Part shown: positions 24,774-64,000 of the stretch, piece after piece | Layout: every line of letters starts with the position of its first letter | Position numbering within the stretch: the first letter of the stretch is position 1 | From: Thermodesulfobacteriota bacterium | Lineage (GTDB): Bacteria; Desulfobacterota; Desulfobaccia; Desulfobaccales; 0-14-0-80-60-11 | DNA length: 64,000 nt | NCBI GenBank assembly: GCA_049322355.1 | Contig: JBMORG010000001.1 | Coordinates: forward strand, 19,410-83,409 | Reading direction: 5' to 3' | Position numbers and translations under genes: made by a program | The notes under the pieces: generated by a model | Told to the model about the DNA's origin: nothing | The model's input: only the letters and a program-made list of their open reading frames with translations | The model's database searches: none

Positions 24774-24777
24774 GAAG

Positions 24778-30826: not shown

Positions 30827-30838
30827 AACCTGTTTTAG

Positions 30839-31106: not shown

Positions 31107-31123
31107 TATATAGGAGGAAAATT

Positions 31124-32025: not shown

Positions 32026-32187
32026 CTCGTAGGAGCTTAAGGACTACATAACCAAAATATATCGATGGACCGGCTGCTCGTAAAAGTGCAATTAAGCCGG
32101 TCCATATCTTTTAAGACGTAAGCCGATTTATCCGGCTGCGTTTCCCTCCTGAGCTCCCATTTTTCGACCTGGCCATTCGGCTGGGTA

Positions 32188-33454: not shown

Positions 33455-33462
33455 AAGAAGGA

Positions 33463-33494
33463 GGGGTTAGCCCAATAGCTAACCCCTTGATTTT
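33463..33494 (+). terminator. Rho-independent terminator-like hairpin after int
   Basis: ggggttagc-ccaata-gctaacccc (9-bp perfect stem) followed by ttgatttt. Confidence 0.55.
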
Positions 33495-33496
33495 AC

Positions 33497-33546
33497 TGGA
33501 GCCGGCAGGGGGATTTGAACCCTCGACCTGCTGATTACGAATCAGG
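33497..33546 (-). other. 3' fragment (anticodon arm to CCA) of a tRNA-Thr(CGU)-like gene; att-site remnant, not a functional tRNA
   Basis: The minus strand reads cctga-ttCGTaa-tcagc aggtc gaggg-ttcaaat-ccccc tgccggc t cca. That gives an anticodon loop with CGT, a variable loop, a T arm with the TTCAAAT loop, a 7-nt acceptor strand, a discriminator and CCA. No matching 5' acceptor or D arm follows at 33547-33580. The T stem has an A:C mismatch. Confidence 0.7.
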
Positions 33547-33685: not shown

Positions 33686-33710
33686 TGCTACCCCAGTTGC
33701 TACCCCAGAA
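33686..33710. repeat. Left copy of the 25-bp direct repeat (tandem TGCTACCCCA motifs), candidate att or arm site
   Basis: tgctaccccaGttgctaccccagaa lies 18 bp upstream of the int2 start. Its partner at 63944-63968 differs at one base. Confidence 0.6.
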
Positions 33711-43569: not shown

Positions 43570-43621
43570 TTGCAACGACGAGCATGGAACCTGAAATTAC
43601 CTAAGGGGTTGTCACGGAAAT

Positions 43622-48504: not shown

Positions 48505-51476
48505 AAACCTTCACCGAATCCAACACCGTCGAACAGATGATCCTGGATGCCGCCACGTCGCCATTGGGCGCGGGCGAAGTCCGACAGGGCTATGCAGTAG
48601 ATTCGCTGGGCAGAGAGTTTCGACCGGCCCAGTGGAAGTACGTCCCTGCCACCGAACTCCCCCGCCAAAGCGCAGACGTCATGATCGAGACCTGGGTTCG
48701 AGAAGCGCTAATCAGGCTCAATCCCGAGATCGCTGCCCAGCCTGAACGGGCCGACGAGGTCATTTATAATCTGCGGGCCTGCATCCTCTCGGTGCAAGCC
48801 GATGGCATCGTGCGCGCCAACGAAAATTTCATGGCCTGGCTCCGGGGCGAAAAGACCATGCCCTTCGGGCCGGGTGGTGAACACGTCCCTATCCGTTTGG
48901 TAGATGCCGACCAGCCGGGCAACAACCGTCTTATCGTCACCAACCAATGGACATACCAAGCCGGACCGGTGGAGAAACGGTTCGATGTGGTCTTTGTGGT
49001 CAACGGCCTGCCCCTGGTCGTCGGCGAGGCTAAGACCCCTTCCCGCAGCGCGGTTACCTGGTTTGATGGCGCCTTTCAGATCAACCAGATCTATGAAAAA
49101 GAGGCGCCGGCCATGTTTGTTCCCAACGTCTTTTCCTTTGCCACCGAAGGCAAGCGCTACCGCTACGGCGCAGTGCGCATGCCTATCGACCTGTGGGGCC
49201 CCTGGCGGGATGAGGAAAACCAGGAGGAAGGGCAACTCCACCATGTCAAGGCTACGGTCCAGAGCATGCTCCGGCCCGAAGTGGTGCTGGACATCTCCCA
49301 GAACTTCACCCTGTTCGCCACCGATAAGAAACATCGCCGCATCAAAATCATCTGCCGTTACCAGCAGTATGAAACTGTCAATAAGATGGTGGCCCGGGTG
49401 GTGGCAGGCTACCCCAAGAAAGGCCTGATCTGGCATTTCCAGGGTAGCGGCAAATCCCTGCTCATGGTCTTTGCGGCTCAAAAGCTCCGGCTGCATGAGA
49501 AACTTCTTAATCCCACGGTAATCATCGTGGTGGACCGCATCGACCTGGACACCCAGATCACCGCCACTTTCAACGCCGCAGACGTGCCCAACATGGTGGG
49601 GGTGGCGACTCGCCAGGAGTTGCAGACTCTGCTGGGCCAGGACGTGCGTAAGGTGCTCATTACCACTATCCACAAATTCGCCGAGGCGGACGACAGACTG
49701 AATGAGCGGTCCAACATCATCGTGATGGTGGACGAAGCCCACCGCACCCAGGAAGGGGACCTGGGGCGCAAGATGCGCGCCGCGCTGCCCAATGCTTTCC
49801 TCTTTGGCCTCACCGGCACACCCATCAACAAGGCCGACCGGAACACCTTCTGGGCCTTCGGCGCCGACGAGGACGAGAAGGGCTATATGAGCCGCTACTC
49901 GTTTGAGGAATCCATCCGGGACCGGGCCACCCTGCCCCTGCATTTTGAGGCCCCGGAAGTCAAGCTGAAGATTAACAAGGCAGCCATTGACGAAGCCTAC
50001 GCCCAGCTTACCGACCAACTGAGTGAGCAGGATAAAGATGATCTGGCCAAACGAGCCGCCAAAATGGCCGTGTTGGTGAAAAACCCCGAGCGGGTGCGGG
50101 CCGTAGTCCAGCATATCGTCTCGCACTTCCAATCTAAAGTAGAGCCCAATGGTTTCAAAGCGCAGGTAGTGACCTTCGACCGGGAGTGCTGTGTCCTTTA
50201 TAAGCAGGTGATGGACGAGTTAATCGGCGAGGAAGCCAGCGCGATTGTTATGCATTACGCAGCGGGCGATCCCTCGGCATGGAAGCCGTATGCGCTCAAC
50301 CGTGATGAAGAAGAGAAATTGCTGGATCGGTTCCGGGACACGGCCGACCCGCTGAAGTTCGTCATTGTCACCTCAAAACTCCTGACAGGCTTCGACGCCC
50401 CCATCCTTCAGGCGATGTATCTCGACAAACCCATGAAGGACCATAACCTCCTGCAGGCCATCTGCCGGACCAACCGCACCTATGGCCAGACCAAGACCCA
50501 TGGCCTGATTGTGGACTATATAGGCATTTTTGACGATGTGGCCCGGGCCCTGGACTTTGACGAAAAGGCGGTCCAGAAGGTGGTGAGCAACATTGACGAA
50601 CTGCGTCAGGCGCTCCCAATGCAGATGCAGAAATGCCTCGCCTTTTTCGCCGGCGTAGATCGTACCGTAGGGGGTTATGAGGGCCTGATGGCCGCCCAGC
50701 AGTGCCTACCAAACAATGAGACCCGGGATAAATTTGCGGCTGAATTCTCGGTACTGGGCACCATTTGGGAGGCGCTCTCACCTGATCCGTGTCTGGGTCC
50801 TTATGAAAAGGATTACCGGTGGCTGACCCAGGTTTATGAATCGGTGAAGCCACCCAGCGGTAATGGCAAGCTACTCTGGCACGCCCTGGGGGCCAAGACG
50901 GTGGAGCTCATCAACCAGAACGTGCACGTGGAGTCTGTCCGTGACGACCTGGAGACGCTGGTGCTCAACGGCCAGGTATTGGAAGACTTCCTCAAGGATA
51001 TTGAACCGGGCAAAAGGGCGAAGGAAGTCGAGATTAAGCTGGTGGCCCGGTTGCGCAAGCATCTTGGCAACCCCAAATTTACCGCCCTGGGCGAGCGCCT
51101 GGAAAAGATCAAAGAGCGCCATGAACAGGGCCTTATTACCAGCCTGGAGTTCCTAAAGCAAATTCTCGAGCTGGCCAAAGATGTGGTTGAAGCCGAGAAG
51201 GAAACCGACCCCGAGGAGGAGCGGGATAAAGCCAAAGAGGCCCTTACTGAGCTGTTTAAGGAAGCTAAGGGGACAAACACCCATATTATCGTTGAACGTA
51301 TTGTGGCGGACATCGACGACATCGTGAAGAAGGTTCGTTTCCCCGACTGGCAGCGTACCACCCAGGGCGAACGCCTGGTACAAAAGGAACTGAGGAAGGT
51401 ATTGCTTAAGTACCAGCTTCATCGCGACCAGGAGCTTTTTGATAAGGCTTACGCTTACATAAGGCAATATTATTGA
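48501..51476 (+). CDS. hsdR: Type I restriction enzyme R subunit (SF2 translocase plus nuclease)
   Basis: FQGSGKSLLM (Walker A), MVDEAHRTQ (DEAH), LTGFDAP and QAICRTNR are present. The start overlaps the upstream stop (ATGA at 48501-48504). Confidence 0.9.
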   Translation: MKTFTESNTVEQMILDAATSPLGAGEVRQGYAVDSLGREFRPAQWKYVPATELPRQSADVMIETWVREALIRLNPEIAAQPERADEVIYNLRACILSVQADGIVRANENFMAWLRGEKTMPFGPGGEHVPIRLVDADQPGNNRLIVTNQWTYQAGPVEKRFDVVFVVNGLPLVVGEAKTPSRSAVTWFDGAFQINQIYEKEAPAMFVPNVFSFATEGKRYRYGAVRMPIDLWGPWRDEENQEEGQLHHVKATVQSMLRPEVVLDISQNFTLFATDKKHRRIKIICRYQQYETVNKMVARVVAGYPKKGLIWHFQGSGKSLLMVFAAQKLRLHEKLLNPTVIIVVDRIDLDTQITATFNAADVPNMVGVATRQELQTLLGQDVRKVLITTIHKFAEADDRLNERSNIIVMVDEAHRTQEGDLGRKMRAALPNAFLFGLTGTPINKADRNTFWAFGADEDEKGYMSRYSFEESIRDRATLPLHFEAPEVKLKINKAAIDEAYAQLTDQLSEQDKDDLAKRAAKMAVLVKNPERVRAVVQHIVSHFQSKVEPNGFKAQVVTFDRECCVLYKQVMDELIGEEASAIVMHYAAGDPSAWKPYALNRDEEEKLLDRFRDTADPLKFVIVTSKLLTGFDAPILQAMYLDKPMKDHNLLQAICRTNRTYGQTKTHGLIVDYIGIFDDVARALDFDEKAVQKVVSNIDELRQALPMQMQKCLAFFAGVDRTVGGYEGLMAAQQCLPNNETRDKFAAEFSVLGTIWEALSPDPCLGPYEKDYRWLTQVYESVKPPSGNGKLLWHALGAKTVELINQNVHVESVRDDLETLVLNGQVLEDFLKDIEPGKRAKEVEIKLVARLRKHLGNPKFTALGERLEKIKERHEQGLITSLEFLKQILELAKDVVEAEKETDPEEERDKAKEALTELFKEAKGTNTHIIVERIVADIDDIVKKVRFPDWQRTTQGERLVQKELRKVLLKYQLHRDQELFDKAYAYIRQYY

Positions 51477-51569: not shown

Positions 51570-54500
51570 GTGGCAAGTTCAATGACAGATGAGGAAAAGA
51601 GCCTATCCCTCCTGCGATTTCTGAAGGATGTAGTTTCCATCAGAAGGCAACGTCTGCCGCGTTATACCGACAACGATAAGCTTATATGGTTTACCAAGCT
51701 CCCTCGAGAACGCCAGGAATGCCGTTCCCCCCTTCTTTTTTGGGAATCAGAGGAGACGCCTGATTTTTGGTTAGAAGTTAAGAAGACCCGCCCGCCATTA
51801 CGAGCGTCCCTCCCCGGAGAACTTACTGATTGGATTGACTCCAAAGAATTGGAAGATGTAAACAAAGAACCTGAAATCCCCTCCTCCATTACTGTCTTTG
51901 TCGAACAGAACGTGCCGGACCCGGAAGCACCGCCAGGGCAACAACGTATTATTACGGAAAAAGTTCCAGTCCAGCACCACCTTGAGGATTACCCTAAGCT
52001 GCAAGAAGCATGGCTCAATTATCTTGTTAATGAATGGGAGCCATGGGCTGAGAAGAAACGTCGTTGGCAAGAAGTTCAAACTATTTATGAAGACGTTGAC
52101 TTCATGCGGCGGCGGCTGGAAGAATCTGAAGAGCGTTTTGAACTGTTTTTAGGCCTTGGATTACTTGTTTGGAAAGATTCTACGGAGAAACTAGTCCGAC
52201 GTCATCTTCTCACTGGACTTGCTGAAATAGACTTTGATGCTGCCCGTGGGATTCTCCGAGTTGTTCCGGCCGCTACTTTTGAGACATTCCGCATTGAAAT
52301 GGACATGCTTGAACTCCAGGATCGCCCACGGATTGACGAACAACAAATCCAAAAAAAACTTGAAGATTTAGATATCAATGCCTGGGATACATGCAAGGTA
52401 GGGGAAATCCTGCGTGAAATTGCCAATAGGGCTAAAGGAGACTCCCAGGTAGATGAGGATTCTTTTGAAATCCCGCGGCCTGGAGATAACACTCTTAGGG
52501 TTTCTTTTGCGCCAGCTTTTGTTTTACGTGAACGTCGTTTCACCGCACCGGAAGAGGTAATCGGGCGACTTTTGGATCGAATAAGCGACTCACCTAACGA
52601 AACCACTAAGCCCTGGGACCAATTTTTAGCCGAAGGAGTTTCAAATGATCAAGAGGTTAATAATGTTTTTGGAGAGAACACTATCACTTACCCCCAATCG
52701 GTTGAACGCATATTCTTTCCTCGGCCCACAAATGAGGAGCAGCGTCAAATAATTCATCGCCTTCAAGCCTCGTCATCCGTAGTGGTGAAAGGTCCACCAG
52801 GTACCGGGAAAAGCAATACCATAGCCAACCTTATAAGCCATCTTTTGGCTACTGGGGAACGGGTCCTGGTGACTGCCCAGGCACCTAAGGCGCTCGATGT
52901 CCTTCGGAACATGGTTCCCCGAGGTCTTCAGAACCTGTGTCTTACTGCATTGAGTTCCTCCAGAGAGGATCAACGCCTCTTGGAGGAAGGGGTTCGGGGT
53001 ATTGTTGGTCGAAAAAATGATTGGGAAACGGAAAAGGAGAACTGGCCTCACGAGATAACAGAACGAGATCTTCGATTAAACCATCTGGAAAAAGAACTGG
53101 CAAACACCGAGCGTCAATTGAGGGAATACCGTGAGGCTGAAACTTTCCCTCATATCTTGCCAGGTGGTTACGAGGGGACCGCAGCCCAAATCGCCAGACA
53201 ACTGGAGCAAGAGCGTGAAACCCTGGGGTGGTTCCCCGAAGTTGTTCAGAGCCAAAATAATTTTCCCTTATCTGAAGATGAATTACTACTCTTGGCTGAA
53301 ATGCATAGAAAATTAACTCCTGAGAACGAACAAGAGCTGGATTTGGAAACCGGAGATTTTGACCTCCTCAGCCCTTCGGATTTTTCACACGTTTTGACTG
53401 GCTTAGAGGAGGCAATTGAAAAGGCCGACACTGCCTCACAAAGTGCTGATCCCGACAAATTGGAAATTTTGAAAGATTCCGCTACCGAGACCATCAACAA
53501 GACAGCAATCACTCTTAAAACAATAGAAGAAAATTGGCTACGCTCTACCCGTGCCTTGGGGGAGATGGCTCATTCAGTATATGAAGATTTATTGGTGACC
53601 CATCGAAGCCATTGGAATCTTCTTTATCAACACACTAAGACAATCCTTGAGCAAATCGAAGTCAATCAGGAAAGACTTGCCGGGGCTGAAGTACATATCC
53701 CCCCAGAGTTGAGCCTTCCTCAGCTTTTAAGCGATACAGAGCGTCGCTTAGATCACCTTGTTAAGGGGGGTCGGATAGGCATATGGTTTTTTCAACCAAA
53801 AATCATCAGGGAGACCAATTATCTCGAAGAACAATGCCGAGTGAATGGTTGTCGACCGCAAGAGCAAGAGCATCTCGAAAGGATAATAGCCTGTCTACGT
53901 TTGCAAGCTAACATACAAGAATTCCAGGCACAATGGCCCCAACCCATCGATATTATGAATGGGGATAATATCCGGGCTGCCATGGCCGCCCGAGAGTTGG
54001 TGACCGAATTGGAACACATCCTGTCTCTGTTTGATGATTTCGGTAATGACGTCGTTCCATGTATACCGGTATCGTTTAGAGCCACTCTGGGTAGTCAAGC
54101 GCAACGGTTAATTTGGCTTAAAGCCATTGAAGCAGAACTTGCCCGCCGTGATCTTGAAACCCATCAGGAACCACTGTCTGATTGCCACCAGCAAATCCAG
54201 AGTTGCCTCAATAGTGGTAGGGCCCATCCATCCTTGTCCAGACTTGCTGAAGCCATATATGCTCACGACCGTGCAGCTTGGCATGGAGCTTGGGAACAGC
54301 GAGAAATTGTTAAGGAAAACCGCCTGCGCCTGAAAAAGTATCGTGAACTGATTAGTCGGCTCAGACCCCTTAGCCCCGGTTTGCCAGAGTTGTTACAGAC
54401 CCATCAAGGCGATCAAGAATGGACACCTCGGCTTTTGGCATTGGAGAAAGCCTGGCATTGGGCTTTAGCCTGCAACTGGATTGCGGCAACTTCAGACCCA

Positions 54501-57263
54501 CATCGATATGAGGAGCTGATGCTGCATAGCCACCGTCTTCAGGAGAAGATTGAGAGTCAAACTGAAGAAACAGCTATCTTGCGGGCCTGGAACACCTTCT
54601 TTTCCCGCTTAGACTCCCGTACCACTCAGAACCTTGGAGCCTGGACTAAAGCAATAGCCCGTATTGGCAAAGGCACGGGAAAATACGCGTACCGCCGTCG
54701 CCGGGAGGCACGTAAGTACCTGATGGAATGTATCCCTAAAATGCCCGCCTGGGTTATGCCCCTCCACAAACTGTGGGAAACTGTGGAGGCCGTCCCGGGG
54801 CTTTTCGACACCATCATTATAGATGAAGCTTCCCAGGCAGGGATAGAGTCTTTGGTTCTTCTATTGCTCGGCAAACGAATCATTGTGGTTGGCGATGATA
54901 AACAGAATAGCCCCGAGGCGGTAGGAGTACTCGAAGACGACATCGCCAGACTGGTTAGGGAACATCTGGAAGAATTCCACTTCCGGTACGAGTATCGCCC
55001 GGATACCAGTCTTTTTGATCATGCCGAACGCGCCTTCGGAAACCTTATTTCCCTTCGGGAACATTTCCGGTGCGTACCAGAAATTATCCGATTCAGCAAT
55101 GACTTGTGTTATAGAGAAGCGCCCCTGATTCCCTTGCGCCAAGCACCGCCTGAGCGCCTTTCTCCCTTGCGCCATACTTTTGTGCCCAATGGTACCTGTC
55201 AAGGGGACGGTCAGAGAATTCGCAATCTCCCCGAAGCTGAGGAACTCGTCCTAACCATCAAACAATGCCTGGAAGACGAAGCCTATGAAGGGAAATCCAT
55301 GGGCGTGATCGTATTGCAAGGGAAAGCACAGGGGGAACTTATTGAAAGGATACTGGCTTTGGAACTCGATCCTCAGGTCATCGCTGAACGGAGACTTCGT
55401 TGCGGCGTCCCAGCCACCTTTCAGGGGGATCAGCGTGATGTTATCTTCCTTTCTATGGTAATCGCTCCTGATAAGCACATCACCGCCCAAACTACGCTTC
55501 CTGCCCAACGTCGGTACAACGTTGCCATGAGTCGCGCCCGTGACCAGGTATGGTTGTTTCACAGTATGCAACCTCATGACCTTAGCAAAGACTGCCTACG
55601 GCGTCGCTTGCTGTTCTTCTTCCTGCGTCCATCAATTTTATCTCTGGAAACTGAGGAACTGGAGCGTCTGGAAAAGGAGGCTCTAAGGACCCCAAGGCGG
55701 ATAGGTAGCCAACCAACCCCTTATGAAAGTTGGTTTGAAGTCGATGTTGCTCTTGAGTTGTTGCGCCGCAATTATCGTGTTCACCCCCAATATGAAGTGG
55801 CCGGGAAAAGGATTGATCTGGTAATCGAAGGGACTGAATCCCGTTTGGCAGTGGAATGTGATGGCGATGCATGGCACGGACCGGAAGAATATGACCGGGA
55901 CATGGCACGGCAACGACAGCTTGAGCGCGCCGGCTGGACATTTTTCCGCGTTAGAGAGTCGGAATTTTATATCGATCGTAACCGGACTACCCAAGACATC
56001 ACTCGGGTATGCAATGAATTGGGGATTATCCCGGAGAGGCAGGAGTCAGAGCTTGAGACCGATATGGCGGTCTCGGGACAAGAAATAGAAACAGATGCTG
56101 AAGCCTTTCAAGCCTCTGAGCCTATAGAAAATAATGGCCAGCCGAGCCTTGATTTTCCAGAGTCAGAAGAAGGCCCCTTTACTGGATACTCTGGGCTTAA
56201 TTTTTCCGATCCCAGGGAGGCCTCCCCGGTAGATCTGAGGGAGACGCTGATGAGAATCATTAGCCAGGATGGCCCTCTTTCTCGGGAATCTATTTATCGG
56301 TTGTACGCCGAAGGGTGTCCCCATCTGCACCGTATCACCAAGACTATTCGAGAAAAAATCAACCGCACCCTTGGAGCCATGTTGCGGACAGGGGAAATTG
56401 TGCACGAAGATGAACTGGGTAAAGGTCGACCTCAGGGGATGATTGTCCGGCGGACAGGAACTCCGTTAGTACGATTAAGGCCTGCAGGGCGCCGCGACTT
56501 AGAGGAGATACCTCCTTCAGAAATTTTGCTGCTTTTGGAGAGACTCAAAATAGATGCTTCTACACGTGATTTCTTCGGAGAGGATTTGATTTTCCGCAAG
56601 ATTTTGGATCATTATGGGTTTCAGAAACTGACAAGATCAAGACGAAAACATCTCCAAGCTGTATTATTTTCCTCACGACAGAAGAACTTATTTCAACCAT
56701 TAGTGTCCGATAGAACAGTTATGGACAAAGAGGAGATTAGCAAGTTACATCAGGACAGGCATTTACGGTATGGATCCAATTTTTTTGAAGAGCATCAGGC
56801 ACGAGATGGAATAGAGGATTCAGAAAATGCAAAAGGCTGGAACGAATCTTCATTTTTTCAAGATATGAGGACTAAAGGTTTTGAAGCGGTTTTAGATGTA
56901 GCTTTCAATATGTTGGAATGGATTAAATCAAAGAAAGTTGATCTGGAATATGGCAAGGGCGCGGTTACTGGTTCTTTTTATCCGGTGATTGATTCCAAAG
57001 GCAAAAGATATAGACTTTTTACCGTTTATTCTGACGGACGAATGGAAATTTGGTTCGCTTATATAAAACAGATCCCACCCTTCGATCAAGAACAAAACCT
57101 TTCAGAATTACTTTTCCGTTTGAATCAAATTGCAGGGGTTTCTCTTGCAAAAGAATCCGTAAATCGCTATCCCGGCATTAAATTATCTGTATTTGCAGAA
57201 GGTCAGGCTTTAAAGCAGTTTTTTGCCATATTTGATTGGGTATTCCAAGAAATCAATGTGTAG
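51570..57263 (+). CDS. Giant SF1 (Upf1-like AAA_11/AAA_12) helicase with a DUF4011-like N-terminus, a DUF559/Vsr-like endonuclease domain and additional C-terminal modules (Hhe-like); an alternative start lies at 51582
   Basis: DUF4011-like ELFLGLGLLVWKD...LLTGLAEIDFD. Walker A VVKGPPGTGKSNT, motif II IIIDEASQ, FRCVPEIIRFSN, ATFQGDQRDVIFLSMV and RRYNVAMSRARDQVWLF are present. The nuclease core is RIDLVIEG...LAVECDGDAWHG...RQRQLERAGWTFFRV. Confidence 0.8.
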   Translation: MASSMTDEEKSLSLLRFLKDVVSIRRQRLPRYTDNDKLIWFTKLPRERQECRSPLLFWESEETPDFWLEVKKTRPPLRASLPGELTDWIDSKELEDVNKEPEIPSSITVFVEQNVPDPEAPPGQQRIITEKVPVQHHLEDYPKLQEAWLNYLVNEWEPWAEKKRRWQEVQTIYEDVDFMRRRLEESEERFELFLGLGLLVWKDSTEKLVRRHLLTGLAEIDFDAARGILRVVPAATFETFRIEMDMLELQDRPRIDEQQIQKKLEDLDINAWDTCKVGEILREIANRAKGDSQVDEDSFEIPRPGDNTLRVSFAPAFVLRERRFTAPEEVIGRLLDRISDSPNETTKPWDQFLAEGVSNDQEVNNVFGENTITYPQSVERIFFPRPTNEEQRQIIHRLQASSSVVVKGPPGTGKSNTIANLISHLLATGERVLVTAQAPKALDVLRNMVPRGLQNLCLTALSSSREDQRLLEEGVRGIVGRKNDWETEKENWPHEITERDLRLNHLEKELANTERQLREYREAETFPHILPGGYEGTAAQIARQLEQERETLGWFPEVVQSQNNFPLSEDELLLLAEMHRKLTPENEQELDLETGDFDLLSPSDFSHVLTGLEEAIEKADTASQSADPDKLEILKDSATETINKTAITLKTIEENWLRSTRALGEMAHSVYEDLLVTHRSHWNLLYQHTKTILEQIEVNQERLAGAEVHIPPELSLPQLLSDTERRLDHLVKGGRIGIWFFQPKIIRETNYLEEQCRVNGCRPQEQEHLERIIACLRLQANIQEFQAQWPQPIDIMNGDNIRAAMAARELVTELEHILSLFDDFGNDVVPCIPVSFRATLGSQAQRLIWLKAIEAELARRDLETHQEPLSDCHQQIQSCLNSGRAHPSLSRLAEAIYAHDRAAWHGAWEQREIVKENRLRLKKYRELISRLRPLSPGLPELLQTHQGDQEWTPRLLALEKAWHWALACNWIAATSDPHRYEELMLHSHRLQEKIESQTEETAILRAWNTFFSRLDSRTTQNLGAWTKAIARIGKGTGKYAYRRRREARKYLMECIPKMPAWVMPLHKLWETVEAVPGLFDTIIIDEASQAGIESLVLLLLGKRIIVVGDDKQNSPEAVGVLEDDIARLVREHLEEFHFRYEYRPDTSLFDHAERAFGNLISLREHFRCVPEIIRFSNDLCYREAPLIPLRQAPPERLSPLRHTFVPNGTCQGDGQRIRNLPEAEELVLTIKQCLEDEAYEGKSMGVIVLQGKAQGELIERILALELDPQVIAERRLRCGVPATFQGDQRDVIFLSMVIAPDKHITAQTTLPAQRRYNVAMSRARDQVWLFHSMQPHDLSKDCLRRRLLFFFLRPSILSLETEELERLEKEALRTPRRIGSQPTPYESWFEVDVALELLRRNYRVHPQYEVAGKRIDLVIEGTESRLAVECDGDAWHGPEEYDRDMARQRQLERAGWTFFRVRESEFYIDRNRTTQDITRVCNELGIIPERQESELETDMAVSGQEIETDAEAFQASEPIENNGQPSLDFPESEEGPFTGYSGLNFSDPREASPVDLRETLMRIISQDGPLSRESIYRLYAEGCPHLHRITKTIREKINRTLGAMLRTGEIVHEDELGKGRPQGMIVRRTGTPLVRLRPAGRRDLEEIPPSEILLLLERLKIDASTRDFFGEDLIFRKILDHYGFQKLTRSRRKHLQAVLFSSRQKNLFQPLVSDRTVMDKEEISKLHQDRHLRYGSNFFEEHQARDGIEDSENAKGWNESSFFQDMRTKGFEAVLDVAFNMLEWIKSKKVDLEYGKGAVTGSFYPVIDSKGKRYRLFTVYSDGRMEIWFAYIKQIPPFDQEQNLSELLFRLNQIAGVSLAKESVNRYPGIKLSVFAEGQALKQFFAIFDWVFQEINV

Positions 57264-57397
57264 ATCTTACCCAAGCGAGTGGTCGGTCAACCCCAAGCGA
57301 CTGCACGTGAGGTCGTTAGGGATCACATTGCGAGCCGCACTATGAAATTGTGAAAAAACTGACCAGGGTTGGTTCTTGGCATGTCTTTTCCACTCCG

Positions 57398-60300
57398 TCA
57401 AGCTCCGGCAGGCGGGAATTTCCATTGCCGCGAGTCTGTGGACTGGTTTTGGGTATTAGTTTTTCGCTGCAAGAATACATCAATGTCTTTAATCTCAAAA
57501 AAGGCTATCGCTGCTTGGTCTTGCCCATGTAAATGAATAATTTGTCTATCGAAAGGTTTTTTATAAGGTGCGTAGGCATTACTACCGCCATACTTGCCGT
57601 TATTTGCAACAATGACCATCTGAAACATATGATAGTGCAAGGCCATCGCCATATTGTCAAAAGTGTTTACATCTTTATTCATCGCTGGAACAGCGAAAAT
57701 ATCCGAGCGATTCCGTAAATCAGCAGCGAGTGTGATATCCGTAGCGTCGTAACAGATGGAAGCTGTGAGCCATAATGGCCGGGTTTGATCTCGACTACAC
57801 CATTCATAACCTACTAACCACTGGCATGGTCTAAAACTTTGGATGACTTGTCCTCGTCCCGATCTATTCGACTCCACCTCCTCTTGGGCGAGGTGGTACT
57901 TGCCTTGTTCGCGAATATAAATCCGTAAACCATGTGTTTCGGACCATGCCGGAATTACCCAAAGTGCCGAGTTTACTAAAGGTGGCTGACCCGCCAAGAG
58001 TTCTTTATAGGTTAATCCCACTGTAATTATTGCCTTATGTGCACGAGCGAAAGGTACAAGATGCGTTGGGATGTCTTTTGGATGGACGGAAAGCTCTGGT
58101 AAAATTAACCAATCAAGGCGCCTTCCAAGCGTCTTGTGTGTCTCTCGGAGTGTCAACAATCTCTCGATTGCAACCAACGTTGCCGATAGATGATTGCGGT
58201 GGCGTCTGCGGATATTCGGGCCTGGTAGAGTGAGGTCTGCCGGGGGTTTGAATTCATCATCGGTTGGAATTACGGTTTGGGCAACGCATACCCTCAAAGG
58301 CCGGTCCACATCAGTCTTGTCGAGTCGGGGTGCTTCAAGATTGAGCATCAATACATGGCTTGATCTTCCCACGATTATCTTTTTAAAAAATTTATCAATG
58401 AGGTCTCGTGTTCTCTTAATTCCATCGCGAACATACTCAACGATCTCGGATACCTCGGAGTTTCGACAACCAGGCCAATGGAGCAAGGCGAATAGAAGTT
58501 GTTCAGTCCAGTACGAGATTGGTAACCAGTAATCACCGAAAGCGGAATGCTCGTTAAGCAGACCGTAGAGTCTTTGATACCAATGGCTGCAAGGAGCCCG
58601 ATATATTGCCATTTCTTCTTTCCAATGAGGCAACCGTACCACCAGCGTGAAGTCTTGCCGAGCCGTCAGAATGAACCTCATAAGATACCCGAGTTGTAAA
58701 CGCCAGCGTTCTTCAGGCGGGCACCACGACGGTGGTCGGTACATCGATCCCTTGGGATCGACTCGACTTGGAACTATCTCAATTTCATCGACTGTGGACA
58801 ACGGGTCGTTTAAATCTGAGAGCCTGACATAAATGTCTGATGGAGTGACAACCTCGTTATCGTTGAATTCGGGCCATTTTTCTAAAAGCTTTATTGCGAA
58901 TGAGATAATCGCAACTTCATTTCGGAGTTGGTTCTTTGGACCTTTTTGAAGTACCAAATCCGCGAGTGTTGACCACTGATCCTCCTTAACTTTTTTTTCT
59001 AAACATAAGTCACTGCGAACTCTCGGAGAGACCTCTACGGACAGCTCAGGTTTTGATTCAAGGATTTCAATTACAAAAGAGGGGTCTCGTTCTGCAATTT
59101 GGTTCAAAAGATGAGGGGTTATATTTTGTTCAATTAGTTTGATCGCTGCCTTTTGGTCAAGAAATGATCGTCGCGACAAAGTAGACAAGGTGGCAAAATC
59201 AGCATTGTTTAAGCCATCACTTTCACCACTTAAGAAATTAATTAATTCAATGTAATGTTTGGTCTCAGAATCATGTTCCGCGCGAAGGATTGATACTTGC
59301 GTGGGATTGTTTGCAGCGAGGAACAAAAGAACTTGCTGCCTAAGATACCACGGCAGAGTAATGGCAGGCAGTGAAAGGAGTCGCTTAGCTTCTTCCAAAA
59401 GAACTGAACGATAATCCGCAAGTTTTATTCCATTTGGAAGAGATGAATTGTCATCAACAAATCCTGTTTCGGTGGCGCCTGCACGGAAAATCTCGGATAA
59501 ACAGTACCAAGCTACGCGGCAGAGAGCCTTGCGGGGCGCACCAGTTTCGGTAAAAGGCCTCAACAAGTTCAAAACATTTTCTAGAACATCCTTAGCAGGC
59601 CAAAGGTCCAGCCCGATGCGAAGAAGACGCACATTAGACGGATCTTCAACCCATGTCTCTATGAGTCCAAGGGCGAATGCTTTTACTTCTTCATCAAGAT
59701 CAGCTTGGGTGCGAAGCGACCCGAAATTATCTGTCCGACATGCATCAGGCTCTTTTTCGAGTTGTTCTTTTTTGGGGCCACAGTCCTCTAAAAGTGGTCT
59801 AAGTGAACGATAAGTACTTCTGAATCGTCCTGCTGCGAAACGTGCAACTGTCTCATCTCGAACGTCCGGAATTGGAGAGAAAGCCCATCCATTTTCCTTC
59901 AAACGTTCCTCAGAATAGCGCCGCTGGGACCGTATCAACCCCTGGATAGAATATAGGATATCTTGCCCAGCGACGGCATCGAATCCCCCGGAGATCGCGC
60001 CCTGTATGCGCTTCATCTTTTTGCTTTGCATCAAAATTGGAGGCTCGTCAACACCAAATGCAGCAGCTTTGGTCTTATCCTTGGATACTTTTAACCCACC
60101 CGCATGGATGTCCAGTAATTCCTGAAGCCAACCGACAATATTCTTCTCAAGGTCAGGGAAGTGAATGGCTTGATCAACCGTCAATACGATTCGAAGATCA
60201 TCAACATAACGACAAACATCTATTACTCTGATGCCAGTTTCGATCTCTTGCGTTATAAATTTCCTCAACCCTTGATCGAAGTCAAGGAGGGAGATGTTCG

Positions 60301-61171
60301 CGAAAAATCCCGCAGAAACAAGACCTTGTGGCAGTGCAACTTTCGAGAAATCCCCAAGGTCCTCTGCAGATGCATACCTCATTACTTCATTCTTGTCTTT
60401 CGCATGCCAGGTCCAAGACAAAAGCCTTTTGACAAAATCATAAAATCCTGGATCGTCATCTGTTGTTTTTAAGGCTTCAATTTTCTCATTCAGCAGGGCT
60501 GGCCGAACCCTGTCGTAGAACTGGCTTAAATCCGAATACACAATCGTGACTCGAGTTCCTGGGGAATTGTTGACAGCCTCAGCCCGACCAACAAATTCCG
60601 GTCTCTCAAGGAATTTTTGGTAATCCTGAAAATAGGCGCGGTAGAGCTTTCCCGAACCCCATCGGTGATGTAATGTTCCGTCACAGCTTTTGTCACAAAA
60701 AAGGCGGTTTCCATAGGAAATAACCTTGTATCTATCGGTGGCTTCTTTAATTGAGGAGCTTGGATCTCCCTGGATTGTTTCTGTCCGATCAGCAAGGCAC
60801 AACATAACAGCAGTAGCGGCAACTTGATCCTTAAGGCTCACATGGGCCAACGGACGGAGTTTTACGGAGTTTTCTCTCTTCTTTGCTGGCTTCGGCTTCC
60901 ATTCGTTTGTTTGAGGATTAACAAGCCACTGTTGGCTCTTTGGGGCAGGCACAAGCCGGATTGGGTCATTTAACCATTGTTCGGGAGTCATTAGCTCTTC
61001 GGCCAAATCGGCAAGGAATTGCCGGAGGTTAACCGTAGCTCGATCTAACTCGAGGGTGTCAGAGTACCAGTTATGGTTACGGATATATGAGGAGGTCTTC
61101 TTCCATGCCTGTATGAGGACCTCTTCCCGGCACAGGTTCTCAAGGCGAGGAAGGAGGAATTCATCATCCAT
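57398..61171 (-). CDS. Reverse transcriptase fused to a C-terminal nitrilase (CN-hydrolase) domain; DRT type 1 / UG1-like defence RT
   Basis: RT motifs are SDLSQFYDRV (A), LPQGLVSAGFFANI (B) and RYVDDLRIV (C; the YVDD codons at 60197-60208 were verified). The nitrilase triad context is LRVCVAQT..., WLILPELSVHP and SICYDATD (Cys codon at 57752-57754). Confidence 0.8.
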   Translation of the reverse strand: MDDEFLLPRLENLCREEVLIQAWKKTSSYIRNHNWYSDTLELDRATVNLRQFLADLAEELMTPEQWLNDPIRLVPAPKSQQWLVNPQTNEWKPKPAKKRENSVKLRPLAHVSLKDQVAATAVMLCLADRTETIQGDPSSSIKEATDRYKVISYGNRLFCDKSCDGTLHHRWGSGKLYRAYFQDYQKFLERPEFVGRAEAVNNSPGTRVTIVYSDLSQFYDRVRPALLNEKIEALKTTDDDPGFYDFVKRLLSWTWHAKDKNEVMRYASAEDLGDFSKVALPQGLVSAGFFANISLLDFDQGLRKFITQEIETGIRVIDVCRYVDDLRIVLTVDQAIHFPDLEKNIVGWLQELLDIHAGGLKVSKDKTKAAAFGVDEPPILMQSKKMKRIQGAISGGFDAVAGQDILYSIQGLIRSQRRYSEERLKENGWAFSPIPDVRDETVARFAAGRFRSTYRSLRPLLEDCGPKKEQLEKEPDACRTDNFGSLRTQADLDEEVKAFALGLIETWVEDPSNVRLLRIGLDLWPAKDVLENVLNLLRPFTETGAPRKALCRVAWYCLSEIFRAGATETGFVDDNSSLPNGIKLADYRSVLLEEAKRLLSLPAITLPWYLRQQVLLFLAANNPTQVSILRAEHDSETKHYIELINFLSGESDGLNNADFATLSTLSRRSFLDQKAAIKLIEQNITPHLLNQIAERDPSFVIEILESKPELSVEVSPRVRSDLCLEKKVKEDQWSTLADLVLQKGPKNQLRNEVAIISFAIKLLEKWPEFNDNEVVTPSDIYVRLSDLNDPLSTVDEIEIVPSRVDPKGSMYRPPSWCPPEERWRLQLGYLMRFILTARQDFTLVVRLPHWKEEMAIYRAPCSHWYQRLYGLLNEHSAFGDYWLPISYWTEQLLFALLHWPGCRNSEVSEIVEYVRDGIKRTRDLIDKFFKKIIVGRSSHVLMLNLEAPRLDKTDVDRPLRVCVAQTVIPTDDEFKPPADLTLPGPNIRRRHRNHLSATLVAIERLLTLRETHKTLGRRLDWLILPELSVHPKDIPTHLVPFARAHKAIITVGLTYKELLAGQPPLVNSALWVIPAWSETHGLRIYIREQGKYHLAQEEVESNRSGRGQVIQSFRPCQWLVGYEWCSRDQTRPLWLTASICYDATDITLAADLRNRSDIFAVPAMNKDVNTFDNMAMALHYHMFQMVIVANNGKYGGSNAYAPYKKPFDRQIIHLHGQDQAAIAFFEIKDIDVFLQRKTNTQNQSTDSRQWKFPPAGA

Positions 61172-61765
61172 AATAAAGAGGCTCTTCGAAAATTTCTTTC
61201 GGAATTTAAAAATCCAAATGCATAGGTTCTATGATTTATTTTTCTAACCAAATTTTCTTGTCAAGGCATGCTATCATAAAATTGGTCCCAGCGGGGGGAT
61301 ATCTGTCAGGAACTCTCCCAGACAAAAAGGAATAAATTGATTGTTGGGCGCGGTGTCCGGATCAAGCATATACGGGGAGGGGGAGTCCCAGTCCCCGTTT
61401 TCGAGTTTTTCTTCTTCCTAATATATTGCGTATTTTTGAACACCTTAGTGGGCACTGGGTAGTTAGCATCAGCCCTTTGCCATTGCCCTGGCCCCCGACG
61501 CAAGTGGCGGCGCCGGGCAGTCAGTCAAGGCTAAGGGTTCTTTTGGGGGGAGGGTAAGGTCAGGGGCCGAGGGAGATCGTCTCCTTGGGTTCTGAGGATG
61601 CGGTGCATCCAAATTTATGTAAACGTATTTTGTTGCCGAAACCATGTTTCTCGATCAATTTATAAGGACTTAGCTTAAGAAACTGAAGTTTTTGGGATTT
61701 TTCCGGGCAAAGAGGCTCCAAAAAAGTTGTATAGAAGAGAGAAATTCAGACATATACAATACAGA

Positions 61766-62932
61766 TCATGGCTTTATGTCCACTCCTGGAGGCCTTATGT
61801 CTTTTCTATACGTTATATCACGGATATATTCGCGGTTTATTCCAATAAGTTCCACCTTCTTCCCATAAGTTAAGTCTCTAAAAAAATCAGATTTTTGTGC
61901 TTCTACAATATTGGCTACAAATATAGTTTCATTTGTCTCATTAATTAAAATGACTGGTCCAGTCTCAATGCATGGCGCAGATTGCGTTTCATGGTTATTA
62001 GAAAATTTTTTCATTATTTTCTCTGGCATTTCTCTATGGCAGTATAAATTTACTATTGGTGCAGTACTATAATCTGCTCCACCTTTTTCAATAGGGATAT
62101 ATGGATAAAAGAATACCGCAAAGGTATGTATACTAAAAATATAAAGAATAAAAACCATAGAAAATGAAATAGCTGTAGCGAAACTCTTAAACCCTTTTGA
62201 AACACTATGCTCTGCAATAAACATATCGACAATCTTGTATATTATAATTCCAAGTAAAAAGATAATTAATAAAAAATTATAACCATATCTACAAAATACC
62301 ATCGTATACAATTTTTTAAACATAGCTGGAAATACATTAATATTAACTATAGTACAAATTACCATTATTTGTAGCGCAAATATTGTTATGCAGAAAGCAC
62401 AGTTTGCCCTACTAAGGAAATCATCTTTATTAACTATTTTAAAGTTATGTAATAGGTCAATAATATTTCTCAGCATAAATATCATAAAAATGGGCACAAA
62501 ATTGAAACCAATTAAGATGGGGTTTGCCCTTAATTCACCGTGAACTGAATAAAAGGCAAATGAAAAAAAGGTAATGAGAGATAGAAATATTGTTATTAAT
62601 GAGCATCCGATTGTCCAAAAATAAATTATTCTGTCTTCTCCCCAAAAAATACCAAAAAGATTAATCCTTTTTTTATTTTCATTACATACTTTTAGAAAAT
62701 AGAAAAAAATAATCCAAGGAACAAGTAATATAATTACTAATATTGAGTAAATAGTGCCTATATGAATATATTTCAACTTAATAAATGATCCTAAATCTAA
62801 TAGCCCTAACCTACTAAAATGTGTATATACGATTAAAAAACCAGAACCATAAACAAAAGCAACCAATAAAATAAACCACTTAGGGCCTTCAAACTTAATC
62901 CCGCTTAAATGATCTTCCATAAGCCGCCTCAC
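61766..62932 (-). CDS. Orphan polytopic membrane protein (about 8-9 TM helices plus a ~100-aa soluble C-terminal domain), extremely AT-rich
   Basis: Hydrophobic helices run throughout (FILLVAFVYGSGFLIVY, IYSILVIILLVPWIIFFYF, LITIFLSLITFFSFAFY and others). No recognisable catalytic motif. Confidence 0.55.
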   Translation of the reverse strand: MRRLMEDHLSGIKFEGPKWFILLVAFVYGSGFLIVYTHFSRLGLLDLGSFIKLKYIHIGTIYSILVIILLVPWIIFFYFLKVCNENKKRINLFGIFWGEDRIIYFWTIGCSLITIFLSLITFFSFAFYSVHGELRANPILIGFNFVPIFMIFMLRNIIDLLHNFKIVNKDDFLSRANCAFCITIFALQIMVICTIVNINVFPAMFKKLYTMVFCRYGYNFLLIIFLLGIIIYKIVDMFIAEHSVSKGFKSFATAISFSMVFILYIFSIHTFAVFFYPYIPIEKGGADYSTAPIVNLYCHREMPEKIMKKFSNNHETQSAPCIETGPVILINETNETIFVANIVEAQKSDFFRDLTYGKKVELIGINREYIRDITYRKDIRPPGVDIKP

Positions 62933-63474
62933 ACGAGGAATGAATTATTACAAGTAGCAGATTTATGCAAAGAATCTAAAACGAGTTACTATATAACTTA
63001 GCGTAATCACAAAAAATACTCTCGTTTTATGGTGGAGCTTTCAGCCAGAGAGGAGGATAGCATAAATTTTAAATGATTTATAATAAATGAAACATCAAAT
63101 ATAATTTTTTCAAAATTTTATTCCTAAACCGACCTTCACCCGCTCTACTCCCCGACCGAAAAATCGAAAAATTCCCAGACCGATCATATTAACCAGGGGG
63201 GAGTAGGAGTCCCGTCTCCGGTTTTTACTCTGGGGTGGGAAGAAAGGGATGTAAGGGAGGGGGCTGGGGTCTGAGTAGACAGGGGTAAGTCAATCCATTC
63301 TCCCCTTGTTGGCCGGCGGCGGAAAGGGGACCGTTGTGGGGGTGGCATGAGAAGCCAGGACTGCAGGACCGAATGGACAGGAAAAGATTGGGGAGGGGCA
63401 CCGGACAAAGCGGTAAAGGTGCGATCTTAATATGAAGGGATCTTTCGATCCCTGATCCCCATCAATAATAATCT

Positions 63475-63685
63475 TTAATCCCTGCCCGGAGGTTTCCGAG
63501 TTTCAACGGTAAAGGCTTTGATGAGGTTGTCCAGGTCGTTGGGTTAAACAGGGTGCGCCGTCCAATTTTTGCGTAAGGGATTCGGCGCCGGCTAACCCAC
63601 CCCGCAATGAGTATTTACTGATTCCCAGACGCTGGGCTGCCTCGTCAACGGTGAGCAAGCCCTTGGGCATTTCCTTTTGCACCAA
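63475..63685 (-). pseudogene. Decayed excisionase-family HTH gene (two frameshifts)
   Basis: Frame 1 reads MPKGLLTVDEAAQRLGISKYSLRG. A second frame reads WVSRRRIPYAKIGRRTLFNP. A third frame reads DLDNLIKAFTVETRKPPGRD-stop. Spliced together, the three pieces recreate a typical excisionase HTH like the intact one at 27882. Confidence 0.55.
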
Positions 63686-63943
63686 ATCGTTTTCTCATTG
63701 CCGGACTTGCCCCGCGCACATCTGAGTCCGCTCCAAAGCAATCACTAACCGATCAATGAGTTCCACAAATTTTGGATTCACCTTGCACAACCAAAGGGTC
63801 TAATCAGTTTCCAAATTATCTCTCCTTGCGTGAGCTTATGTACCCGTGATTTGGCCGGTGATACCCCAAGCTGCTACCCCAATAATTTTTTGTTAAGGCT
63901 TGTGATATGGGAGGTCCTGTCAAAGCTCTACCAGAGGCAATTT

Positions 63944-63968
63944 TGCTACCCCAATTGCTACCCCAGAA
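63944..63968. repeat. Right copy of the 25-bp direct repeat (tandem TGCTACCCCA motifs), candidate att or arm site
   Basis: tgctaccccaAttgctaccccagaa. Extra related motifs lie at 63860-63881 (gataccccaag ctgctacccca). Confidence 0.6.
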
Positions 63969-64000
63969 CATAAATGAGGTTAAACCTATCGGCTAACCCC

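What the first reader, a model, noticed from the sequence alone, without database searches (positions are those of the whole stretch)
57398..61171. Reverse transcriptase-nitrilase fusion (DRT1/UG1-like) convergent with the helicase gene
Seen in the sequence:
- RT motifs A, B and C are present, including a verified YVDD at 60197-60208.
- A ~600-aa helical middle region follows.
- The C-terminal CN-hydrolase has the PEL Glu and a Cys in SICYDATD (codon at 57752-57754).

Established knowledge: RT-nitrilase fusions form the UG1/DRT type 1 class of defence-associated RTs. Their template, product and the role of the nitrilase are unresolved.

Inference: this copy sits on a satellite-like island beside other defence genes and next to a long non-coding region. 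That makes it a good specimen for finding the cognate RNA.
Basis: partly seen in the sequence, partly recalled or inferred. Interest (0 to 1): 0.6.

Follow-up and report, generated by a model that had tools for sequence, protein, structure and literature searches.

The report
Intact DRT1 reverse transcriptase-nitrilase defence gene
This is an intact but ordinary copy of DRT1, a known anti-phage gene that fuses a reverse transcriptase to a nitrilase, carried on a 30-kb mobile defence island; a 2026 study of the family shows it needs no RNA template, so there is probably no partner RNA to look for.

Summary
ORF 57398-61171 (-) encodes a 1257-aa protein with YVDD at 60197-60208 and the nitrilase Cys codon at 57752-57754.

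It is a full-length member of DRT1/UG1. PADLOC Drt1a scores 1288 bits end to end. The solved DRT1 structure 9YFD aligns over residues 8-1236 (E 1e-114, about 30% identity).

Every residue shown experimentally to matter in DRT1 is conserved:
- RT D324/D325
- priming Ser (S394 = S402, invariant in 99 of 99 diverse homologues)
- nitrilase E1026/K1091/E1098/C1140
- C-terminal lid K1251/A1255

Neville et al. 2026 (PMC13275509) showed template-free, protein-primed synthesis of semirandom ssDNA adducts that assemble dormant filaments.

The inference that the flanking non-coding DNA holds a cognate RNA is not supported. That DNA is unconserved in 81 related loci, not unusually structured (z -0.55), has no Rfam match, and contains a frameshifted excisionase-like pseudogene.

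No drt1b partner is present. The upstream 7-TM gene is a 29% GC orphan.

The island context holds: a 30.3-kb integrase/primase element bounded by 25-nt direct repeats.

Verdict: a new member of a known kind, of low interest.

The parts
57398..61171 (-). drt1 (drt1a) gene: 1257-aa reverse transcriptase / alpha-helical repeat / nitrilase fusion, intact
   Evidence: ORF listed. PADLOC Drt1a PDLC03745 scores 1288 bits over aa 5-1256. PDB 9YFD DRT1 gives E 1.3e-114 over aa 8-1236. The same 1257-aa product is called on an independent Logan assembly.
60047..61171 (-). RT (fingers/palm/thumb) domain, aa 1-375. Motif A D214 is at 60530-60532, motif B QGLVSAG at 60308-60328, and motif C YVDD at 60197-60208.
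   Evidence: Pfam RVT_1 covers aa 205-371. D214, Q282, D324 and D325 are invariant in 99 of 99. D324/D325 align with D324/D325 of 9YFD, whose D-to-N mutant abolishes defence (PMC13275509).
59702..60046 (-). Flexible priming loop, aa 376-490. The predicted priming serine S394 (codon 59990-59992) lies in the motif AISGGFD (59978-59998).
   Evidence: S394 aligns with S402 of 9YFD and is Ser in 99 of 99 diverse DRT1 proteins. The loop has low pLDDT in the model. It corresponds to unresolved residues 382-478 of 9YFD.
58322..59701 (-). Alpha-helical repeat domain, aa 491-950
   Evidence: In the AlphaFold model of aa 376-960, aa ~486-845 are almost all helix with pLDDT 75-94. Only weak HEAT/ARM-like fold matches were found. 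The region aligns with the alpha-helical repeat domain of 9YFD.
57464..58321 (-). Nitrilase (C-N hydrolase) domain, aa 951-1236. The catalytic tetrad is E1026 (58094-58096), K1091 (57899-57901), E1098 (57878-57880) and C1140 (57752-57754).
   Evidence: C1140 aligns with catalytic C1116 of 9YFD. E, K, E and C are present in 99, 99, 98 and 98 of 99 sequences respectively. The model (pTM 0.83) matches amidases and C-N hydrolases at E ~1e-9.
57401..57463 (-). C-terminal tail, aa 1237-1257, with the conserved lid motif WKFPPAG (57404-57424). K1251 and A1255 correspond to K1219 and A1223 of DRT1.
   Evidence: K, P and A are each present in 93-95 of 99 sequences. In P0260, which is 59% identical to 9YFD, the same motif falls on positions 1219-1224. 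K1219A and A1223F abolish defence.
61172..61765 (-). 594-nt upstream intergenic region. It presumably holds the promoter and 5'UTR. No evidence of an ncRNA was found.
   Evidence: No similarity in 81 DRT1 loci. RNA fold z-score is -0.55. No Rfam match at E<=1. Promoter-like sites are no more frequent than in shuffled sequence.
57264..57397 (.). 134-nt convergent intergenic spacer between the helicase-nuclease stop and the drt1 stop
   Evidence: Coordinates. Fold z-score is -0.56, with weak terminator-like hairpins only.

Best explanation
This is a stand-alone DRT1 (UG1, class 3 UG/Abi) abortive-infection defence gene. It is cargo of a ~30-kb integrative element in a Thermodesulfobacteriota genome.

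By homology with the characterised enzyme, it most likely works as follows:
1. The RT domain (YVDD, D324/D325) uses no RNA template. It primes on its own Ser394 in a flexible loop and makes a short, A-rich, semirandom ssDNA that stays covalently attached.
2. These DNA adducts drive tetramerisation through the nitrilase domains and stacking of tetramers into filaments.
3. In the filament, the C-terminal tail (K1251-x-x-P-A1255-G) swaps onto a neighbouring protomer. There it closes the nitrilase active site (E1026/K1091/E1098/C1140) and keeps it dormant.
4. A phage-encoded activity in mid-infection, such as a Dda-type ssDNA helicase, releases the lock.
5. The nitrilase then acts on a still unknown essential substrate and aborts the infection.

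Shown here: family membership, intactness, and conservation of every functionally tested residue. Inferred: all of the biochemistry.
For: Family membership:
- Full-length match to PADLOC Drt1a, 1288 bits.
- Full-length alignment to solved DRT1 9YFD, E 1e-114 and 30% identity.

Conserved functional residues:
- D324/D325, S394 (= S402), C1140 (= C1116) and K1251/A1255 (= K1219/A1223) are conserved in the query.
- They are invariant or nearly invariant across 99 diverse family members.
- These are exactly the residues whose mutation abolishes defence in PMC13275509.

Domain structure:
- The nitrilase fold is confirmed by modelling.
- The loop-plus-helical-repeat middle region is confirmed.

No partner or RNA needed:
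- There is no drt1b. PADLOC gives nothing for the flanking ORFs, and only 134 nt lie downstream.
- About 82% of DRT1 genes lack drt1b, and the characterised DRT1 works alone.
- There is no conserved or structured flanking RNA.

Context:
- Defence-island neighbours include type I R-M, a GmrSD-like gene and a ProA/Hhe-like helicase-nuclease.
Against: - Identity to the only biochemically characterised DRT1 is just ~30%. The priming motif differs (AISGGFD versus VGTSSIP), so the priming site is an alignment-based prediction.
- The K. pneumoniae DRT1 of Gao et al. reportedly needs its TM partner. Some family members are therefore not autonomous.
- Nothing here shows expression or activity.
- The host is an anaerobic Thermodesulfobacteriota MAG whose phages are unknown, so a Dda-type trigger is pure extrapolation.
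- The nitrilase substrate is unknown even for the model enzyme.
Confidence: 0.82

Rival explanations
1. The RT copies a cognate non-coding RNA encoded in the adjacent long non-coding region, as in retrons, DRT2 or DRT9, and that cDNA mediates defence.
For: - There are 594 nt of non-coding DNA upstream of drt1 and more than 1 kb beyond the TM gene.
- Class 2 UG/Abi RTs and retrons do use adjacent ncRNAs.
Against: [quoted passage not shown]
- The flanks have no similarity in 81 DRT1 loci.
- The nearest upstream ORF of at least 150 aa lies within 100 nt of, or overlaps, the DRT1 start in 27 of 73 loci.
- The upstream fold z-score is -0.55.
- There are no Rfam matches.
- Part of the 'non-coding' DNA is a frameshifted HTH_17 pseudogene.
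Confidence: 0.03
2. This is a two-gene system. The co-oriented upstream 388-aa 7-TM protein (61766-62932) would be a lineage-specific membrane effector or partner, functionally analogous to Drt1b.
For: - It is on the same strand, immediately upstream.
- It is a multi-pass membrane protein (7 hydrophobic segments).
- About 18% of DRT1 genes have a TM partner, and in K. pneumoniae that partner is required.
- The arrangement is kept in an independent assembly.
Against: - It matches no PADLOC model even at E<=10, and no Pfam, NCBIfam or PHROG family.
- It is an orphan. Only its own sequence and one weak partial hit exist among 5.8 billion proteins, and that hit is not next to an RT.
- It is absent from 81 DRT1 loci.
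- A 594-nt gap separates it from drt1, and its GC content is 29% against 46% for drt1. Both argue for separate acquisition.
Confidence: 0.07
3. This is a silent or decaying copy. The gene would be a remnant on a degrading mobile element and no longer functional.
For: - The same island carries a twice-frameshifted excisionase-like gene.
- No convincing sigma-70-type promoter was found upstream.
Against: - The ORF is uninterrupted over 1257 codons and aligns end to end with its homologues.
- All catalytic and regulatory residues are retained.
Confidence: 0.05
4. It belongs to UG5-large (DRT11-type) and not to UG1.
For: - UG1 nitrilases nest within the UG5 nitrilase radiation.
- The PADLOC RT_UG5-nitrilase model hits at 131.9 bits.
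Against: - The UG5 hit covers only the nitrilase region, aa 1015-1227.
- The RT region scores only 20 bits against RT_UG5_small, versus 1288 bits full length for Drt1a.
- The DRT1-specific priming Ser is present. The paper states that it is not conserved in other class 3 DRTs.
Confidence: 0.02

Closest known systems
DRT1 (UG1) of Neville et al. 2026, PDB 9YFD (PMC13275509)
   Same: - Same three-domain architecture and length (1257 versus 1229 aa), collinear over the whole protein.
- Same RT catalytic Asp pair, priming Ser, nitrilase E-K-E-C residues and C-terminal K-x-x-P-A lid.
- Stand-alone gene without drt1b.
   Different: - Only ~30% identical.
- It belongs to the large environmental branch modelled by PADLOC PDLC03745, not the branch modelled by PDLC02171 (441.6 bits).
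- The priming motif is A-I-S-G-G-F-D, not V-G-T-S-S-I-P.
- There is a longer linker (about 6 more residues) between the nitrilase core and the lid motif, and only 2 residues follow the lid Ala instead of 6.
- The host is a Thermodesulfobacteriota MAG.
DRT type 1 of Klebsiella pneumoniae (Gao et al. 2020), with the drt1b membrane gene
   Same: RT-nitrilase fusion of the UG1 group, with both domains needed for defence.
   Different: That system has, and reportedly needs, the cluster-85 TM protein Drt1b. No Drt1b homologue is present here.
UG5-large / DRT11 RT-nitrilase (PMC13436386)
   Same: Class 3 UG/Abi RT fused to a related nitrilase, with an abortive-infection-like phenotype. It can work without a TM partner.
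   Different: The RT domain is from a different group. Only the nitrilase region of the query matches UG5 models.
AbiK / Abi-P2 / DRT4 (class 1 UG/Abi RTs)
   Same: Works alike in one respect: template-independent, protein-primed synthesis of random ssDNA covalently attached to the enzyme.
   Different: These have no nitrilase effector. They have a different oligomeric architecture, and they are not family members by sequence.
Retrons
   Same: A functional analogy drawn by the DRT1 authors: RT-made non-genomic DNA holds an effector dormant in a filament until phage infection.
   Different: Retrons copy a dedicated ncRNA into msDNA and usually have a separate effector gene. No ncRNA is detectable here.

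Membership tests
DRT1 / UG1 (class 3 UG/Abi RT) | Full-length match to the family profile | tested here: met
   PADLOC Drt1a PDLC03745 scores 1288 bits, covering aa 5-1256 against profile positions 5-1175 of 1176. phmmer against 9YFD gives E 1.3e-114 over aa 8-1236.
DRT1 / UG1 (class 3 UG/Abi RT) | Single polypeptide of 1200-1300 aa: N-terminal RT, alpha-helical repeat middle, C-terminal C-N hydrolase | tested here: met
   The protein is 1257 aa. RVT_1 covers aa 205-371. The middle region is helical. The C-N hydrolase fold is confirmed. The definition comes from Mestre 2022.
DRT1 / UG1 (class 3 UG/Abi RT) | RT catalytic YxDD with the Asp pair (D324/D325 in 9YFD) | tested here: met
   YVDD is at aa 322-325. 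D324 and D325 are invariant in 99 of 99.
DRT1 / UG1 (class 3 UG/Abi RT) | Conserved priming serine (S402 in 9YFD), specific to DRT1 among class 3 enzymes | tested here: met
   S394 is in the same alignment column as S402, and that column is Ser in 99 of 99. This is by alignment only; priming itself was not tested.
DRT1 / UG1 (class 3 UG/Abi RT) | Nitrilase catalytic Cys (C1116) with the Glu-Lys-Glu partners | tested here: met
   C1140 aligns with C1116. E1026, K1091, E1098 and C1140 are conserved in 99, 99, 98 and 98 of 99. The assignment of the E, K and E positions is my inference from the motif order of the nitrilase superfamily.
DRT1 / UG1 (class 3 UG/Abi RT) | Conserved C-terminal lid residues (K1219, A1223) used for domain swapping | tested here: met
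   WKFPPAG is at aa 1250-1256. K, P and A are each present in 93-95 of 99. The numbering was checked on P0260, which is 59% identical to 9YFD.
DRT1 / UG1 (class 3 UG/Abi RT) | [quoted passage not shown] | not testable with these tools
   These are biochemical and genetic properties shown for 9YFD only.
DRT1 / UG1 (class 3 UG/Abi RT) | Accessory, not defining (about 18% of members): an adjacent drt1b transmembrane gene (cluster 85) | tested here: not met
   The flanking ORFs give no PADLOC hit at E<=10. The upstream 7-TM gene is an unrelated orphan. Absence of drt1b is the majority state for the family.
UG5-large / DRT11 | RT domain of the UG5 group | tested here: not met
   RT_UG5-nitrilase matches only aa 1015-1227 (131.9 bits). 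RT_UG5_small scores 20 bits on the RT region.
Class 2 DRTs (DRT2, DRT9) and retrons | Adjacent conserved, structured ncRNA used as template | tested here: not met
   No Rfam match. No conservation in 81 loci. Fold z-score is -0.55. The Drt2 profile scores only 29 bits.
Group II intron RT/maturase | Match to the RT/maturase equivalog model | tested here: not met
   TIGR04416 scores 29.7 bits against a cutoff of 300. No intron RNA was found in Rfam.

The most novel reading that the evidence does not exclude
The 29% GC, 7-TM orphan gene directly upstream (61766-62932, same strand) might be a newly recruited membrane partner of this DRT1. It would be unrelated in sequence to Drt1b but play the same role, for example a channel gated by the DNA adducts, as proposed for Hailong. 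That would show that DRT1 enzymes repeatedly capture unrelated membrane effectors.
Probability: 0.06. Interest if true: 0.5.

Novelty: new member of a known kind. Interest (0 to 1): 0.2.

Why it matters
It matters little beyond cataloguing. It adds a Thermodesulfobacteriota example to a family already found in 366 species-representative genomes across many phyla.

The comparison does give one useful by-product. The priming serine, the nitrilase tetrad and the C-terminal K-x-x-P-A lid, identified in one enzyme, hold across 99 representatives that share only ~30% identity. This supports the generality of the published mechanism.

The family's real open question is the substrate of the nitrilase and the full trigger pathway. 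This copy does not make that question easier to test.

Tried and rejected
- E. coli genomes megablast of 57000-64000: no match, so the window is not enterobacterial.
- tblastn of the protein against the phage collection: no match.
- tblastn against plasmids: only 7 distant hits.
- Rfam at gathering threshold on the whole window, and at E<=1 on 57000-64000: nothing.
- tRNA/tmRNA scan: none, so no tRNA integration site lies inside the window.
- blastn (word size 7) of the three flanking non-coding stretches against 81 DRT1 loci: only chance-level 16-26-nt matches.
- RNA folding of the upstream and downstream spacers: z -0.55 and -0.56.
- Repeat search in 57000-64000: only short chance-level pairs.
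- Promoter and terminator scan: no more sites than in shuffled sequence.
- TM gene as Drt1b: rejected.
- Fold search of the middle domain: no significant PDB match, only weak HEAT/ARM-like resemblance. 9YFD itself is newer than that fold library.
It was rerun with aa 1-1199.
- The query's own sequence was not returned by the homologue search, although an independent Logan contig encodes it. I treat this as a database quirk.
Full report
**1. The observation**

- The window holds a 1257-codon ORF on the minus strand, 57398-61171, starting with ATG.
YVDD is aa 322-325 at 60197-60208. The Cys of SICYDATD is aa 1140, codon 57752-57754. The PEL glutamate is E1026 at 58094-58096.
- The gene is convergent with a 1897-aa helicase-nuclease gene (51570-57263, +), and the two stops are 134 nt apart.
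- An ORF of this length that aligns end to end with hundreds of homologues is not a chance feature.

**2. What it is**

- PADLOC's Drt1a model PDLC03745 matches aa 5-1256 at 1288 bits. The next RT-group models score at most 50 bits on the RT region. The UG5-nitrilase model matches only the nitrilase part.
- The PDB holds one relative, 9YFD, 'Defense-associated reverse transcriptase 1'. It is collinear over aa 8-1236 (E 1.3e-114) at about 30% identity.
- Pfam sees only RVT_1. NCBIfam gives only a sub-threshold group II RT hit, 29.7 bits against a cutoff of 300.
- Because no CN_hydrolase profile hit was found, I modelled aa 940-1257 from a 39-sequence alignment (pLDDT 77, pTM 0.83). The best PDB fold matches are all nitrilase-superfamily amidases or C-N hydrolases (E about 1e-9, probability 1.0).
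- A model of aa 376-960 shows a low-confidence ~110-residue loop followed by a confident all-helical region. That region resembles HEAT/ARM solenoids only weakly.
- The architecture is therefore RT (1-375), flexible loop (376-490), helical repeats (491-950), nitrilase (951-1236) and tail (1237-1257).

**3. The family has been characterised**

Neville et al. 2026 (PMC13275509) report the following for DRT1:

- It primes on its own Ser402.
- It makes short A-rich semirandom ssDNA adducts.
- The adducts drive tetramer and filament assembly.
- The last 19 residues domain-swap to close the nitrilase site.
- The mutants D324N/D325N, S402A, C1116A, K1219A and A1223F abolish defence.
- T4 escapers map to the Dda ssDNA helicase.
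- About 18% of drt1 genes have a drt1b membrane partner, and the studied enzyme works without one.
- The nitrilase substrate is still unknown.

**4. Do the functional residues hold in this copy?**

I collected 120 close homologues (54-72% identity) and 150 representatives at the 50% clustering level. I aligned the 97 full-length representatives with the query and the 9YFD sequence, which I reconstructed from the printed alignments.

| Residue in the query | Equivalent in 9YFD | Conservation |
|---|---|---|
| D214, Q282, D324, D325 (RT) | D212, Q281, D324, D325 | 99 of 99 |
| S394 (priming serine) | S402 | 99 of 99 |
| E1026, K1091 (nitrilase) | E1017, K1077 | 99 of 99 |
| E1098, C1140 (nitrilase) | E1084, C1116 | 98 of 99 |
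| K1251, P1254, A1255 (tail) | K1219, P1222*, A1223 | 93-95 of 99 |

*Position read from P0260; the 9YFD tail itself was not recovered from the printed alignments.

- In P0260, which is 59% identical to 9YFD, the tail residues fall on positions 1219-1223. This confirms the equivalence with the essential K1219 and A1223.
- Most of the family reads S-G-[G/P]-x-D after the serine. The characterised enzyme's G-T-S-S is the outlier.
- All tested defining features are therefore met. The biochemistry itself cannot be tested here.

**5. The cognate-RNA idea**

- The 594-nt upstream spacer (61172-61765), the >1-kb stretch beyond the next gene (62933-64000) and the downstream spacer have no similarity in 81 DRT1 loci from other genomes.
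- Both spacers fold no better than shuffled sequence: z is -0.55 upstream and -0.56 downstream. The 62933-64000 stretch was not folded.
- No Rfam match was found, even at E<=1.
- In related loci the median upstream gap is 183 nt. In 27 of 73 loci the nearest upstream ORF of at least 150 aa lies within 100 nt of, or overlaps, the DRT1 start. That leaves no room for a conserved RNA gene.
- Part of the 'non-coding' DNA (about 63470-63690, minus strand) is a decayed gene. Joining three reading frames gives a 65-aa peptide that matches Pfam HTH_17 at E 6.7e-14.
- Together with the published template-free mechanism, the inference is not supported.

**6. Partner genes**

- There is no room for a gene downstream.
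- The co-oriented upstream gene (61766-62932) encodes a 388-aa protein with seven hydrophobic segments and a ~110-aa soluble tail. Its GC content is 29%, against 46% for drt1.
- It has no hit in PADLOC (even at E<=10), Pfam, NCBIfam or PHROGs.
- Among 5.8 billion proteins it matches only itself and one weak partial hit. That hit is not next to an RT. The self-match is annotated in a Thermodesulfobacteriota MAG.
- It is absent from the 81 related loci.
- I therefore treat drt1 as stand-alone. A residual 6-7% remains for a lineage-specific partner.

**7. Context**

- A 25-nt direct repeat, TGCTACCCCA(G/A)TTGCTACCCCAGAA, lies at 33686-33710, 18 nt upstream of a P4-type integrase gene (33728-34948). 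It recurs at 63944-63968 with 24 of 25 positions matching, 30,258 nt away.
- Between the two copies lie:
  - the integrase;
  - a primase (36972-39494; phrog_1139, 276 bits);
  - a type I R-M locus interrupted by a GmrSD-like gene (42055-51476);
  - the ProA/Hhe-like helicase-nuclease;
  - drt1;
  - the orphan TM gene;
  - the excisionase-like pseudogene.
- So 'mobile defence island' is supported. 'Satellite' is not demonstrated, because no capsid-related functions were recognised.
- To the left lies a second mobile region with another integrase, a DUF927/Cch-like helicase, a DDE transposase and an M78 peptidase.

**8. Verdict**

- The gene is a new, intact member of a known and now mechanistically described family.
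- It is widespread: 366 hits among GTDB species representatives across many phyla.
- Interest is low (0.2).
- The most useful by-product is that the residues defined in one enzyme hold across the whole family.
- The most intriguing side observation is a recurrent type IIG - DRT1 - PDC-S68 helicase cassette in related genomes. It is not present in this window.

Noticed in passing
Related loci L003, L013, L016, L019, L020, L021, L023, L024, L072 (and partly L071, L002, L038, L056, L081): In about 10-14 of 80 DRT1 loci from different phyla, drt1 sits in a co-oriented, tightly packed three-gene cassette. Upstream is a type IIG REase-MTase-like gene of ~1300-1390 aa whose stop overlaps the drt1 start by 4 nt in several loci. 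Downstream is a PDC-S68 RecD-like helicase of ~1250-1275 aa, 22 nt away in L016, L020, L021 and L072 (23 nt in L023). A phage ssDNA helicase (Dda) is needed to trigger DRT1, so a host helicase partner is worth testing. No paper mentions PDC-S68. The cassette is absent from this window.
   Followed up: partly
window 33686-33710 and 63944-63968: A 25-nt direct repeat, TGCTACCCCA(G/A)TTGCTACCCCAGAA (24 of 25 identical, 30,258 nt apart). The left copy lies 18 nt upstream of a P4-type integrase gene. The two copies are probably the att-type ends of a ~30.3-kb integrative defence island. A third related half-copy is at 63865-63881.
   Followed up: partly
window ~63470-63690 (minus strand): A frameshifted excisionase/AlpA-like HTH_17 gene. 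Joining three frames gives MPKGLLTVDEAAQRLGISKYSLRGWVSRRRIPYAKIGRRTLFNPNDLDNLIKAF..., which matches Pfam HTH_17 at E 6.7e-14. Part of the 'long non-coding region' is therefore a pseudogene or carries assembly indels.
   Followed up: yes
window 61766-62932 (minus strand): A 388-aa orphan membrane protein with 7 hydrophobic segments and a ~110-aa soluble C-terminus. Its GC content is 29.4% in a ~49% GC window. It has no family hit in any library. Its only database relatives are itself (Thermodesulfobacteriota MAG, ACOZFS_00320) and one weak partial hit.
   Followed up: yes
window 42055-51476: The type I R-M locus has an unusual layout: a stand-alone hsdM-like gene (42055-43569), a GmrSD_N/DUF262 gene (43622-45853), an HsdM-HsdS fusion (45850-48504) and hsdR (48501-51476).
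   Followed up: no
window 51570-57263 (+): A 1897-aa SF1 helicase (AAA_11/AAA_12) with an MTES_1575/DUF559 endonuclease domain. Its similarity to anti-phage ProA (228 bits, cutoff 1500), Hhe (133 bits, cutoff 2000) and PADLOC PDC-S37 is only partial. It may be an undescribed variant of these single-gene helicase-nuclease defences.
   Followed up: partly
window 23008-23047: An exact tandem duplication of a 20-nt unit, CATCGCGGCCAGGGGAAAGC, between the TetR gene and the M78 peptidase gene.
   Followed up: no
window 23500-33500: A second mobile region lies left of the island. It holds an M78/IrrE-like peptidase (23562-24344), a DDE transposase (26280-27398), a DUF927 + Cch-HTH replicative helicase-like gene (28121-30826) and another tyrosine integrase (32255-33454). 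This suggests tandem elements at an integration hotspot.
   Followed up: no
DRT1 family alignment (query aa 388-398): The invariant priming serine is followed by Gly in most of the 99 diverse DRT1 proteins (motif I-Q-x-x-x-S-G-[G/P]-x-D). The experimentally studied enzyme (V-G-T-S-S-I-P) is the atypical one. A strongly conserved basic stretch, RFAAGRFRSTYRSLRPLL (aa 444-461), also sits in the loop that is unresolved in the structure.
   Followed up: partly
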